The position numbers and the translations under genes are program-made. From a virus (lineage: Duplodnaviria > Caudoviricetes): a stretch of 64,000 nucleotides of DNA. Below are positions 3,650-36,602 of the stretch, piece by piece; position 1 is the stretch's first letter, and each line of letters opens with the position of its first letter. The notes beneath the pieces were generated by a model, which was given only the letters and a program-made list of their open reading frames with translations, ran no database searches and was not told where the DNA came from. The stretch is taken from positions 96,001 to 160,000 of the IMG/VR virus record IMGVR_UViG_3300032123_000052; one strand, written 5' to 3'.

Positions 3650-5440
3650 ATGATTAAATATATCCAATACGATTCGATTGATGAAACCGGTCAGCACATT
3701 ATACCGATAAACTCAATCGAACAGCTTAACAAAACTGCTACGAGCAACTACGCTCCGGAGCTGATGAAGGTTATTCTCAACCTCAATCGGAAGCCAGAGC
3801 GGTACTATGTTGTTATCAATGCTCTTGGGTCATATGAAGTTTGGGGTTCCAATCGTAATGGTGATGCCTTCCCGGAAGCAGGCCTTTCCCACAAATCATT
3901 ACGTACTGATATGAATACCGCAAATGATTATGGGTATAAAACATTTGAATATTATGCAAAATTCTATAAGCACCATGTGAATAAAGATCCAAGTCGTTCT
4001 TTTGGCGAAATAATATTTGCCCACTGGAATCCTGTGCTTCGTCGTGTTGAGTTGATTGCCGCAATCGATGTGGTGAAGGGTGCTGATATAGTAAGGTCTC
4101 TTGAAACTGGCGAGCCTGTAAGTGTTAGTATGGGTTGTCGGGTCCGGTTTGATCGCTGTAGCATTTGTCAACATAAAGCAAAAACCAGGAAGACCTACTG
4201 CAAGCATCTCAAGAATTATATGGGCCAGATAGTTACTCCCGAACTTGCCGCCTTATGGTCCAAAGAGCTTGGGAAAATAATACTTCCTGGTACTATGGTT
4301 TTCGCTTTCAATGATTATCCTCGATTTTTTGATATATCGAAAGTTTTTATAGGTGCCGACCGTACATCGTTTGTTTTGGGTAAGGCTGCATCGGCAGGCC
4401 TAGTTATAGCTTCTGTAGATTTGGCAGACGCATACGGAGTAACCGATGCGATGTTTGATAAGGCTGCCCAAGTTAAAAAAGAGGGTGACATCGATAAAGA
4501 GGTAGGGGCTTTGGGGAAAGATGATATCGATGGTACTATGAAACCTGCTGATAATGTCACTGTTTTCAGAAAAGCCCTCGATGAAAAAATGAATAAAACA
4601 ATAGCTGCCGAACCAAAACTTCCGAACGATCTTCTCGACTCAATGGCGTCAACCCACCCATTAAATAGAATATTATCTACTATATTAGGCCTTGGTATAC
4701 ACCCGAAGCCTGACGAGTTTCAAAGAATCGTTCTGATACGGGCTGGACAAAAGCCACTTGCTGATGAGTTGGAAAAGCAGGGTACTATATTTGACTATAA
4801 GAGCGATGTCGAACCACAAGATATAGATATATCAAATTATTATTATGACGACACTCTCGCTAGATCACTTTCTACTTATATCGAAAAGAGAAGTTGTTTT
4901 CCGACGTTCCTTCAATCAAGGTTGTTGGTGGTTATGGAGAAAACAGCTCAGTTTCCTCCTCCTATTGGAAAAGAAAAAAAGGAATTTAAAATCGGACCAA
5001 AGGTAGCGGTTCTTGTCGGGCTTGCGGCGCTTTATGCTGGATTGAAATTAAAGGCAAAAGGCTACGGGTCGAAACAACTTGCTGAGATTTTTACAAAGAA
5101 ACAATGGCTTCGCTCTATTATCGGTGGCGGGGTAATGTATAAAATATTTGAAGAGATAGGTAAAGCACAACACGAAAATCCGATGCTTGGTCCGGCTGTT
5201 AATTATGAAGGTGCACTCCGTGACACCAATTTTTCTGGCAAAATTGTGAAGCAATCAGCATTAAATGTATTGACCGATGCAATAGTCCTTCCAGGCGCGT
5301 ACATAATAAATTCATATAATCAAGACACATTGTATAAAACCAGTAAACTGTTTTTTCCTGAGCAAAGTATTAATAATAATTTTGCGCTGGATAATATAAA
5401 CTCAGAATTATTGAAAAAAAAGTTGTTTGAAATCAAATAA
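3650..5440 (+). CDS. prohead (maturation) protease with Cys/His cluster and long C-terminal extension
   Basis: NRNGDAF, HHVNKD (His) and VSMGC (Ser) motifs followed by CSIC...CKH; lies upstream of scaffold and capsid genes. Confidence 0.75.
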   Translation: MIKYIQYDSIDETGQHIIPINSIEQLNKTATSNYAPELMKVILNLNRKPERYYVVINALGSYEVWGSNRNGDAFPEAGLSHKSLRTDMNTANDYGYKTFEYYAKFYKHHVNKDPSRSFGEIIFAHWNPVLRRVELIAAIDVVKGADIVRSLETGEPVSVSMGCRVRFDRCSICQHKAKTRKTYCKHLKNYMGQIVTPELAALWSKELGKIILPGTMVFAFNDYPRFFDISKVFIGADRTSFVLGKAASAGLVIASVDLADAYGVTDAMFDKAAQVKKEGDIDKEVGALGKDDIDGTMKPADNVTVFRKALDEKMNKTIAAEPKLPNDLLDSMASTHPLNRILSTILGLGIHPKPDEFQRIVLIRAGQKPLADELEKQGTIFDYKSDVEPQDIDISNYYYDDTLARSLSTYIEKRSCFPTFLQSRLLVVMEKTAQFPPPIGKEKKEFKIGPKVAVLVGLAALYAGLKLKAKGYGSKQLAEIFTKKQWLRSIIGGGVMYKIFEEIGKAQHENPMLGPAVNYEGALRDTNFSGKIVKQSALNVLTDAIVLPGAYIINSYNQDTLYKTSKLFFPEQSINNNFALDNINSELLKKKLFEIK

Positions 5441-35415: not shown

Positions 35416-35449
35416 TCTATTCTCCTTTTCGTAAATGATTATTATCCTC

Positions 35450-35483
35450 TTAATAGTTATACCAAATTTAGGCTATTAATAAC
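35450..35483 (-). promoter_or_regulatory. phage promoter motif copy fused to upstream terminator
   Basis: GTTATT-N13-TGGTATAAC-TATTAA, right after the AGGCAGAG/CTCTGCCT hairpin and T-run. Confidence 0.65.
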
Positions 35484-35510: not shown

Positions 35511-35738
35511 TTAAATCGAATTGAACAGACCAAACCATTCGAAAAAACCCATTATCTTCTTATGTTTTGTTATGATCAATTTGTAACCTTTCTTCTGACA
35601 CTTCCAGCATGGGAGGAAGATACCATAGTTAGTTTGATACACAGCATGTTTCTTACCGCAAACCGCACATGGCATATTATGATGAACAACAAGGCCGTCA
35701 CTATCAATCTCGATGACAGCCAAAGGTTTTAAACCCAT
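35511..35738 (-). CDS. small zinc-ribbon protein
   Basis: CAVC...CWKC; GGAGG RBS. Confidence 0.65.
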   Translation of the reverse strand: MGLKPLAVIEIDSDGLVVHHNMPCAVCGKKHAVYQTNYGIFLPCWKCQKKGYKLIITKHKKIMGFFEWFGLFNSI

Positions 35739-35754
35739 GTGTCACCTCCTGAAA

Positions 35755-36000
35755 TAAAAAAAGGCAGTACAGACTCGCGTCAAAGGTATTTTAATGGGAG
35801 ACAAAATAATACCTTCTCAGCTAGTCCATACCGCTCGTACAGAACACGTCAGACCTAACGGATCTCACCCCACCCACCTTCGTACTGTGCTATGTTGAAT
35901 AGTTCCATTCCACTCTATCCAACGCAAGAAGTTGCGCAGCACCCGATTAAGCAGCCCATGAGAGTGTAGCACACACTCGTAGGGGTGTGTTCCTTTTATA
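35755..36000 (-). ncRNA. structured RNA candidate downstream of the tRNA-like gene
   Basis: 12-bp helix GCGGTATGGACT/AGTCTGTACTGC with three G-U pairs followed by a U-tract; nested helices GTGCTA/TAGCAC, CACTCT/AGAGTG and AAGGTATT/AATACCTT. Confidence 0.6.
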
Positions 36001-36003
36001 AAT

Positions 36004-36077
36004 TAGCAGCGGACGGATTCGAACCATCGACCTCAAGCTTATGGGGCTCGCAAGCCCCTTGAATGGTTTCCGCAACC
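36004..36077 (-). tRNA. degenerate tRNA-Met/Ile2-like (CAT)
   Basis: Intact T arm GATGG-TTCGAAT-CCGTC; anticodon arm CGAGC-CCCATAA-GCTTG; weak acceptor stem, aberrant D arm, C33. Confidence 0.55.
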
Positions 36078-36191
36078 TTTATTACAGATATCTTATATGT
36101 TGGCACATATTCTCCTTTTATGTAAAAATAATTATTATCTAACACTATGGATATATCAGAAAAAAAATAATAGCCAAAAAAAAGCTGGCGA

Positions 36192-36602
36192 TTAAACGCC
36201 AGCTCTTTGTTTATTGATTTTGCTTCCCCTAGTTTCTTTTATCCCCAGCTTACCATCAAAAGGTTGTTCGTTAATATACTGGCGAACCGGCATGGCAATG
36301 TAGCACCTGTATGGGTACCTGATGGCGCCCACCATAACAACATCTTTGAGAAACGGCATAATACTTTCAATTCTGCATGATTGTATATATTTACACATAT
36401 GGCCAGCGGTATTTTGAAAATTAAAATATTCAGTTGACAATATCTTCTCTTTAAACACGAGACTTGATTGTACAGTAAAACAGTTTTTACTTAATTTGGT
36501 CACATCATCATTTACCGGGATTCCTTCTATTACTTTAATAATTGTAGCTCTGGTCTTTTCTTCGACGTTCTTTAATTTATTAAGAGTCTTTTCCAGATCC
36601 AT
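36192..36602 (-). CDS. hypothetical protein
   Basis: GAGG RBS; followed by a terminator-like hairpin. Confidence 0.65.
   Translation of the reverse strand: MDLEKTLNKLKNVEEKTRATIIKVIEGIPVNDDVTKLSKNCFTVQSSLVFKEKILSTEYFNFQNTAGHMCKYIQSCRIESIMPFLKDVVMVGAIRYPYRCYIAMPVRQYINEQPFDGKLGIKETRGSKINKQRAGV

What the first reader, a model, noticed from the sequence alone, without database searches (positions are those of the whole stretch)
35755..36000. Second multibranch RNA (about 240 nt) directly 3' of the tRNA-like gene
Seen: three consecutive domains with nested helices; G-U pairs favour the - strand (12-bp GCGGTATGGACT/AGTCTGTACTGC, GCGCAA/TTGCGT, GAATG/TATTC, AGATC/GGTCT); ends in a U-tract; no ORF. 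Established: phage tRNAs often neighbour ncRNAs or ribozymes. I could not match hammerhead, HDV/theta or group I motifs. Inference: an undescribed ncRNA released from the precursor by tRNA processing.
Basis: partly seen in the sequence, partly recalled or inferred. Interest (0 to 1): 0.65.

Follow-up and report, generated by a model that had tools for sequence, protein, structure and literature searches.

The report
Conserved RNA trailer behind phage tRNA
The flagged stretch is a real, selectively maintained non-coding RNA module behind a decayed methionine-tRNA gene of an uncultured 208-kb phage. It was found whole in only one sister phage, matches no catalogued RNA family, and its function is unknown.

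Summary
**Verdict: a real orphan RNA element behind a tRNA gene, function unknown.**

- **Setting.** Window 35756-36003 (- strand) lies in a 450-nt gap between genes of a 208-kb IMG/VR phage.
- **Homologues.** A sister phage (L002) has a genuine tRNA-Met(CAU) followed by the same ~240 nt. A third phage (L032) keeps the tRNA, a short hairpin in the place of helix P1, and the terminal hairpin. A fourth (L029) lacks everything.
- **Selection.** Synonymous sites of flanking genes are saturated (38% identity). The non-coding middle domain is 67% identical, about the same as the coding DNA, so it is under selection.
- **Structure.** The 71-nt two-tier terminal hairpin is strongly supported by covariation: 20 pairs, 97% paired, 10 with double changes. 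The closing helix P1 is supported more weakly. The inner helices are not statistically supported, and the window's fold energy is ordinary (z = -1.1).
- **tRNA-like.** It keeps 19 of 21 cloverleaf pairs but has lost U8, U33 and CCA.
- **Known families.** Rfam, tmRNA, Y RNA, GOLLD and group II matches all fail.
- **Best reading.** A tRNA-linked trailer RNA ending in a leaky terminator. The main rival is a cis-acting attenuator.
- **Earlier scan results.** This scan has noted comparable phage tRNA-trailer RNAs on other DNA.

The parts
36131..36159 (-). Promoter-like site upstream of the tRNA-like gene. It follows the canonical terminator of gene 36192-36602.
   Evidence: Sigma-70-like match at 9 of 12 positions. 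The same motif and the downstream leader are homologous to the promoter region of a 65-aa gene in sister phage L029.
36082..36108 (-). 8-codon stub ORF with an AAGGAG ribosome-binding site. It is the remnant of the 5' end of a gene that L029 still has whole.
   Evidence: Read. The stub aligns by eye with the start of L029:5120-5317.
36004..36077 (-). tRNA-Met(CAU)-like fold, decayed from a true tRNA gene. G8, C33 and no CCA; U4-U69 and C12-C23 mismatches.
   Evidence: Rfam tRNA 16.3 bits against a gathering score of 29. ARAGORN reports it only at a relaxed threshold. It aligns without gaps to the genuine tRNAs of L002 (61.2 bits) and L032. The cloverleaf is 93.7% paired over the three sequences, with 8 pairs changed on both sides.
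35841..35993 (-). Middle multibranch domain (153 nt) closed by helix P1 (35993-35987 with 35847-35841). Contains the conserved motifs GUGCU...AGCACA and GGGGUGA.
   Evidence: 67% identical to L002:4503-4673, z = 11.9 against shuffles. The covariance model built from the window finds L002 over its full length (19.5 bits, E 0.006) and nothing else in 233 kb. P1 is kept with one double change. A 6-bp equivalent lies at the same position in L032.
35764..35834 (-). Two-tier hairpin: 11-12 bp lower stem, internal loop, 9 bp upper stem, apical loop with conserved CCCAUU.
   Evidence: Three-phage alignment A6: 20 pairs, 96.7% of cells paired, 10 pairs changed on both sides. Slid controls are 35-52% paired. 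It is single copy in each genome.
35756..35762 (-). U7 tract directly after the hairpin, making an intrinsic-terminator-like end.
   Evidence: The U-tract is conserved in L002 and L032.
35736..35750 (-). RBS (AGGAGG) and ATG of the 75-aa zinc-ribbon gene. The RBS begins 6 nt after the U-tract.
   Evidence: The scan found no promoter-like site on the - strand between 35740 and 35850.

Best explanation
A lineage-restricted non-coding RNA module forms the 3' trailer of a phage tRNA-Met(CAU) gene.

Proposed course of events (inferred unless marked):
1. In this phage, transcription starts at the promoter-like site near 36150.
2. It runs through an 8-codon gene stub and the tRNA-like fold.
3. It continues through a 153-nt domain closed by helix P1.
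4. It reaches a 71-nt two-tier hairpin followed by U7.
5. tRNA-processing enzymes (RNase P at the 5' side; RNase Z or RNase E at the 3' side) cut at the tRNA-like fold and free a ~240-nt RNA.
6. The 3' end of that RNA is made and protected by the hairpin.
7. The hairpin works as a partial terminator, so the next gene is expressed only by read-through.
8. The P1 domain is an optional accessory module that acts as RNA. It binds a protein or another RNA; the partner is unknown.

Shown here: homology, purifying selection, strand, the hairpin and P1 helices, and retention of the tRNA cloverleaf.

Inferred: transcription, the cleavage sites, partial termination, and any trans-acting role.
For: **Homology and synteny**
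- L002 has tRNA-Met followed by the same element between orthologous genes.

**Selection**
- The middle domain is 67% identical and the hairpin 74%.
- Four-fold sites of six flanking orthologues are 38% identical and their coding DNA is 66% identical.

**RNA-level constraint**
- Hairpin: 10 of 20 pairs changed on both sides, 97% paired.
- Summed helix preservation between the window and L002 is 65, against a null of 45.9 +/- 4.5 (0 of 1000 shuffles reach it).
- G-U pairs fit only the - strand.

**Association with the tRNA rather than with the downstream gene**
- In the three phages that carry it, the element directly follows the tRNA(CAU).
- The gene after it differs in each: a 75-aa gene, a 155-aa gene, and a ~27-codon ORF.

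**tRNA-like fold kept by compensatory changes** after loss of the decoding hallmarks.

**Not coding**.

**Single copy**, and not a generic terminator type.

**Precedents**
- T4 RNA C and RNA D come from the tRNA region (PMC3014915).
- E. coli tRNA external transcribed spacers act as RNA sponges (PMC7213987 citing Lalaouna 2015).
Against: - There is no expression data of any kind, and the host is unknown.
- Only two sequences carry the middle domain, so its fold is unproven. Inner helices are individually not significant. The window's fold energy is ordinary (z = -1.1). With two sequences P1, P3 and P6 are mostly invariant.
- The domain is dispensable: L032 has a 31-nt hairpin in its place and L029 has nothing.
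- I found no convincing trans target. The apical loop's complement is not the phage's RBS consensus, and the best genomic match (10 nt) is at chance level.
- The gene start lies immediately after the U-tract, which fits a cis-regulatory leader equally well.
Confidence: 0.45

Rival explanations
1. Cis-acting leader or attenuator, riboswitch-like. The P1 domain senses a ligand, a protein or tRNA status, and decides whether the two-tier hairpin terminates transcription before the downstream genes. In this reading the released RNA is only a by-product.
For: - The RBS of the next gene starts 6 nt after the U-tract here, and a gene start follows closely in L002 and L032. The scan found no promoter-like site in between in the window.
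- The 5' strand of the hairpin (UAUGGA) is invariant between the window and L002, while its partner strand varies.
- Two upstream segments can pair with that 5' strand in both the window and L002, one of them with a double compensatory change.
- PhiKZ has a 180-nt 5'UTR ncRNA thought to arise by premature termination (PMC8545117).
Against: - The candidate antiterminators are weak (-2.6 to -4.5 kcal/mol against about -16 for the terminator stem). They were picked from hundreds of possible helices.
- The downstream gene differs in each of the three phages, so there is no consistent regulated target.
- L032 keeps the hairpin without the sensor domain.
- No known riboswitch model matches.
Confidence: 0.25
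2. Only the hairpin and U-tract (the terminator of the tRNA operon) and the P1 stem matter. The 150 nt inside P1 are a decaying passenger, for example the wreck of another tRNA, an intron or a small gene.
For: - The domain is absent from L032 and L029.
- The window's inner fold is no better than shuffles.
- Inner helices are not significant.
- The L002 hairpin 4555-4583 gives a faint match to a group II domain-5 model.
Against: - Neutral sites between the two phages are saturated (38%), yet the domain is 67% identical, z = 11.9. A passenger should be unalignable.
- The group II hit scores 14.8 bits against a gathering score of 53, and there is no such match in the window.
- There is no tRNA signal inside the domain at normal ARAGORN or Rfam settings.
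- No frame is conserved.
Confidence: 0.12
3. The hairpin is an RNase III-type processing or stability site, as in the T7 intergenic sites, rather than a terminator. It would separate the tRNA from the downstream mRNA and leave a protective 3' hairpin.
For: - It has two stacked helices of about 11 and 9 bp around an internal loop. It lies just upstream of an RBS and is conserved in three phages.
- The resemblance to T7 RNase III sites rests on my own knowledge, not on a test here.
Against: - The conserved U6-U7 tract immediately after the stem is the hallmark of an intrinsic terminator.
- No RNase III consensus was tested, nor can one be with these tools.
Confidence: 0.1
4. The conservation is at the DNA level, for example a protein-binding, recombination or replication site.
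For: Only that the region is conserved without coding.
Against: - The changes preserve pairs, including G-U pairs that would be A-C mismatches on the other strand.
- It is oriented with the surrounding genes, next to a tRNA and a U-tract.
Confidence: 0.05

Closest known systems
Phage T4 RNA C and RNA D, small stable RNAs of the T4 tRNA region
   Same: Small non-coding RNAs transcribed together with phage tRNA genes, with an unknown biological role (PMC3014915).
   Different: No sequence similarity: blastn of the region against 50,697 GenBank phage records found nothing. Here the partner tRNA is a single, decayed tRNA-Met, and the element ends directly in front of a gene.
E. coli tRNA 3' external transcribed spacer (3'ETS of the glyW-cysT-leuZ operon), an sRNA sponge
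   Same: A functional RNA made from the trailer of a tRNA transcript by tRNA processing (cited in PMC7213987).
   Different: The sponge is short and works by base pairing with known sRNAs. Here the RNA is about 240 nt and multibranched, no target was found, and the host is unknown.
PhiKZ 5'UTR-derived ncRNA of gene p40
   Same: A jumbo-phage RNA of about 180 nt made of stem-loops. The last stem-loop is thought to terminate transcription prematurely, just before a start codon (PMC8545117).
   Different: It is not linked to a tRNA. There is no sequence relation.
GOLLD/ROOL large ornate RNAs of phages
   Same: Phage-borne structured RNAs that are often linked to tRNA genes (PMC12286853).
   Different: They are several times larger by my recollection. 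No Rfam match to either model, even at E up to 10.
Bacterial Y RNAs (YrlA), a tRNA-like module joined to a second structured module
   Same: A tRNA-like fold covalently linked to another structured RNA, close to nucleic-acid repair genes. A ligase gene lies about 750 nt downstream.
   Different: There is no Ro/TROVE gene in the phage genome. No Rfam match. Here the tRNA-like is a separate cloverleaf at the 5' end, not embedded in a Ro-binding stem.

Membership tests
Any Rfam 15 family | Covariance-model score at or near the family's gathering score | tested here: not met
   Only chance-level hits of 24 bits or less, with E above 0.07, in the window and in L002. The sole exception is the tRNA itself.
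Intrinsic (Rho-independent) terminator | Stable stem-loop immediately followed by a U-tract | tested here: met
   An 11-12 bp lower stem plus a 9 bp upper stem, then U7. Both stems and the U-tract are conserved in three phages. The simple scanner misses it because its loop limit is 8 nt. Termination efficiency cannot be tested here.
Riboswitch or transcription attenuator | Conserved sensor domain whose folding excludes the terminator through an antiterminator helix | tested here: inconclusive
   Two weak alternative pairings with the terminator's 5' strand exist in both the window and L002. They have low stability and were selected after the fact.
Riboswitch or transcription attenuator | Consistent class of regulated downstream gene | tested here: not met
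   The downstream genes differ: a 75-aa zinc-ribbon gene (window), a 155-aa gene of unknown function (L002), and a ~27-codon ORF (L032).
tRNA-trailer-derived small RNA (T4 RNA C/D, 3'ETS type) | Lies in the same transcription unit directly 3' of a tRNA that processing enzymes can recognise | tested here: met
   The element starts at the discriminator base of the tRNA(-like) in all three phages. The window's cloverleaf keeps 19 of 21 pairs.
tRNA-trailer-derived small RNA (T4 RNA C/D, 3'ETS type) | A discrete, stable processed RNA species accumulates | not testable with these tools
   No transcript data exist for this uncultured phage.
tmRNA, standard or permuted | tRNA-like domain with a tag reading frame, detectable by ARAGORN or Rfam | tested here: not met
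   ARAGORN finds no tmRNA in the window, the genome or the sub-region. No Rfam hit.
Y RNA (YrlA) | Ro/TROVE protein partner encoded in the genome | tested here: not met
   PF05731 is absent from the 208-kb genome, while the control genomes matched.
Group II intron remnant (domain 5) | Domain-5 hairpin that scores with the model and is present in all copies | tested here: not met
   L002:4555-4583 scores 14.8 bits against a gathering score of 53, E 1.6. There is no counterpart in the window.

The most novel reading that the evidence does not exclude
The tRNA-like fold has been kept in this phage only as a processing handle, after losing U8, U33 and CCA. It would deliver a functional ~240-nt RNA whose P1 domain senses a cellular signal or binds a host factor. 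That would make it a bacteriophage counterpart of the tRNA-linked non-coding RNAs of some animal herpesviruses, or a new attenuator class gating the downstream repair-ligase gene block.
Probability: 0.12. Interest if true: 0.7.

Novelty: new variant of a known kind. Interest (0 to 1): 0.38.

Why it matters
Phage tRNA genes are usually explained by codon usage or by escape from host anticodon nucleases. The RNA that travels with them is mostly ignored. Here the trailer is as conserved as the neighbouring protein genes, and it outlives the decoding features of its own tRNA. That argues the trailer has a function of its own. This scan has reported comparable trailer RNAs behind tRNA genes of other phages, so they may form a broad, unstudied class. 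This example is small, single copy and sharply bounded, which makes it easy to test by termination and RNase P/Z assays. With only two full copies and no function it remains a modest finding.

Tried and rejected
**Searches for more copies that found nothing**
- Rfam at gathering and at permissive thresholds, on the window and on L002: nothing except the tRNA.
- GenBank phage blastn, megablast and tblastn with the region and its neighbours: no match.
- The two genes flanking the gap used as anchors in IMG/VR: no relatives.
- Five DNA-pattern scans built from the conserved hairpin motifs: three of IMG/VR and two of GTDB genomes. They returned only L002 or chance hits.
- Covariance models R1 and R2 over 18 loci and five whole phage genomes: no further copy. 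The weak R2 hit in L062 has no tRNA nearby and looks like chance.
- The DUF4031 neighbour gene used as an anchor: one distant locus, L054, with no tRNA and no element.

**Alternative identities rejected**
- Coding potential: rejected.
- tmRNA, Y RNA / Ro, and a group II domain-5 remnant: rejected.
- Apical loop as an anti-RBS or trans-pairing seed. The phage RBS consensus is AAGGAG(G/A). The loop's complement (GGGAGA) occurs upstream of only 3 of 196 gene starts, and the best 10-nt match elsewhere is at chance level.
- T-box-like reading: no model match and no shared specifier (inspection).

**Limits**
The Logan and ENA contigs that carry the closest ligase relatives (P0002-P0005, 66-78% identity) could not be fetched.
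- The alignment tool's 'mean column identity' overstates pairwise identity, so I recomputed identity.

Full report
**Where it lies**

- The window is bases 96001-160000 of a 208,085-bp IMG/VR virus record.
- Around the finding all genes run on the - strand.
- The finding lies in a 450-nt gap between gene 36192-36602 and the 75-aa zinc-ribbon gene 35511-35738.
- Reading the - strand, the gap holds the following, in order:
  1. The canonical terminator of the upstream gene.
  2. A promoter-like site (36159-36131).
  3. An AAGGAG ribosome-binding site with an 8-codon stub ORF (36108-36082).
  4. The tRNA-like fold (36077-36004).
  5. The flagged ~240 nt, ending in U7 (35762-35756).
  6. Six bases later, the RBS of the next gene.

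**Checking the observation**

- Fold energy alone is not remarkable:
  - z = -1.73 for the 341-nt region including the tRNA-like.
  - z = -1.10 for the inner 153 nt.
- Rfam finds nothing at gathering or at permissive thresholds.
- ARAGORN sees the tRNA-like only at a relaxed threshold.

**Relatives**

- The region and its neighbours have no match among GenBank phages.
- The downstream 560-aa ligase-like gene served as an anchor and gave four informative loci.
  - **L002.** A 186-kb IMG/VR phage (L015, L033 and L053 lie on the same contig or the corresponding metagenome record) whose ligase is 65% identical. tblastx shows gene-by-gene synteny. The gap L002:4395-4770 holds a genuine tRNA-Met(CAU) (61.2 bits), followed by a homologue of the whole flagged element.
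  - **L032.** Has the tRNA-Met, then a 31-nt hairpin whose outer stem lies where P1 lies, then a homologue of the terminal hairpin and U-tract.
  - **L029.** Has none of these. It has a terminator, the promoter motif and an intact 65-aa gene. The window's 8-codon stub is the remnant of that gene's start.
- The tRNA cassette therefore sits in different immediate contexts in each phage. In the window it replaced a gene.
- No further copy was found:
  - pattern scans of IMG/VR and of GTDB genomes;
  - two covariance models run over loci and whole relatives.

**Is it under selection?**

| Compared between the window and L002 | Identity |
|---|---|
| Middle domain, aligned columns | 67% (z = 11.9 against shuffles) |
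| Terminal hairpin region | 74% (z = 14.6) |
| Four-fold degenerate sites, six flanking orthologues | 38% (saturated) |
| Coding DNA of those orthologues | 66% |

- The non-coding element evolves like the protein genes, not like neutral DNA.
- Stop codons fill all frames in the window, and no frame is shared with L002. The constraint is therefore not coding.

**Which structure is supported?**

- **Terminal hairpin: strong support.** In the three-phage alignment A6 its 20 pairs are 96.7% paired and 10 pairs changed on both sides. Slid controls give 35-52% paired. The apical loop keeps CCCAUU and the U-tract is kept. The hairpin is single copy in each genome that carries it, so it is not a generic terminator type.
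- **Helix P1: some support.** It keeps pairing with a double change between the window and L002. L032 has a different 6-bp helix at the same position.
- **All eight candidate helices together.** Preservation in L002 exceeds a substitution-shuffling null: 65 against 45.9 +/- 4.5, and 0 of 1000 shuffles reach it.
- **Individual helices.** Only P1 and the two hairpin stems come near significance. The inner helices do not (P 0.15-0.56).
- **The window-derived model.** It aligns L002 over its full length, but two inner hairpins fall into an unaligned 42-nt insertion. The helices that are shared are mostly invariant.
- **Two competing inner helices.** A local hairpin and a long-range helix P3 are mutually exclusive. 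Both are conserved, so the inner fold is unresolved.

**The tRNA-like**

- It aligns without gaps to the two real tRNAs.
- The window's copy keeps 19 of 21 cloverleaf pairs. In the three-sequence alignment 8 of the 21 pairs have changed on both sides while staying paired.
- It has G8, C33, no encoded CCA, and scores 16.3 bits.
- It is therefore a maintained fold that has lost the hallmarks of a decoding tRNA. That fits a retained processing signal, but this is inference.

**Mechanism**

- My best reading (0.45) is a tRNA-linked trailer RNA:
  - its 5' end is made by tRNA processing;
  - its 3' end is made by the hairpin and U-tract;
  - the hairpin is a leaky terminator, because the next gene starts right after it and the scan found no promoter of its own.
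- The element always follows the tRNA, while the gene after it differs in each phage. This favours the trailer reading over a dedicated riboswitch.
- The attenuator reading (0.25) is kept alive by three points:
  - the position of the gene start;
  - the invariant 5' strand of the hairpin;
  - two weak alternative pairings.
- Passenger, RNase III-site and DNA-level readings are less likely, for the reasons given under the rivals.

**Comparison with known systems**

- The kind is known:
  - T4 RNA C and RNA D from the tRNA region, roles unknown (PMC3014915).
  - tRNA spacer sponges in E. coli.
  - A terminated 5'UTR RNA in PhiKZ.
  - tRNA-linked GOLLD.
- The sequence and fold match none of them.
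- tmRNA, Y RNA and group II readings fail their defining tests.

**Verdict**

- This is a real, selected, orphan RNA element: a new sequence family within a known genomic theme.
- There are only two full copies and no demonstrated function.
- Earlier notes of this scan describe similar trailer RNAs behind phage tRNAs on other DNA. I took them as leads only.
- The anti-RBS idea from one of those notes was tested here and not supported.

Noticed in passing
window 36001-36077 (-): The tRNA-like keeps all four cloverleaf stems, with compensatory changes relative to the real tRNAs of L002 and L032. It has lost U8 (now G), U33 (now C) and the encoded CCA. It looks like a fold maintained for something other than decoding, or a tRNA with an altered anticodon loop.
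   Followed up: partly
L002:4426-4502 and L032:5235-5311: Both genuine tRNA-Met(CAU) genes have a U1-U72 mismatch at the top of the acceptor stem. A 1:72 mismatch is the bacterial initiator hallmark, but only two G-C pairs close the anticodon stem. Whether the tRNA is initiator, elongator or Ile2 is unresolved.
   Followed up: no
L002:4128-4394 and L032:4958-5212: A DUF4031 (PF13223) gene lies 23-32 nt upstream of the tRNA-Met in both sister phages. I found no match to it in the window's phage, although the positive controls for that search also gave no match. A more distant DUF4031 locus (L054) has no tRNA.
   Followed up: partly
window 36082-36159 (-): The promoter motif, RBS and an 8-codon stub are homologous to the start of an intact 65-aa gene in L029:5120-5317. 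The tRNA cassette replaced that gene in this phage.
   Followed up: partly
window 35440-35470 and 36140-36160 (-); L029:5060-5085; L032:5500-5535: A recurring motif of the type TGGTATA(A/T)CTAT follows the canonical terminators and precedes genes. It is probably the promoter type of this phage clade.
   Followed up: no
window 35865-35871 and 35796-35801 (-): The two best-conserved unpaired motifs are a Shine-Dalgarno-like GGGGUGA in the middle domain and an anti-Shine-Dalgarno-like UCUCCC in the apical loop of the hairpin. They could pair weakly with each other or with ribosomal or mRNA partners. No significant target was found.
   Followed up: partly
L002:4555-4583: This hairpin begins with GAGCCGUAU and gives a faint match to a group II intron domain-5 model (14.8 bits, E 1.6). 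There is no counterpart in the window, so it is probably chance.
   Followed up: partly
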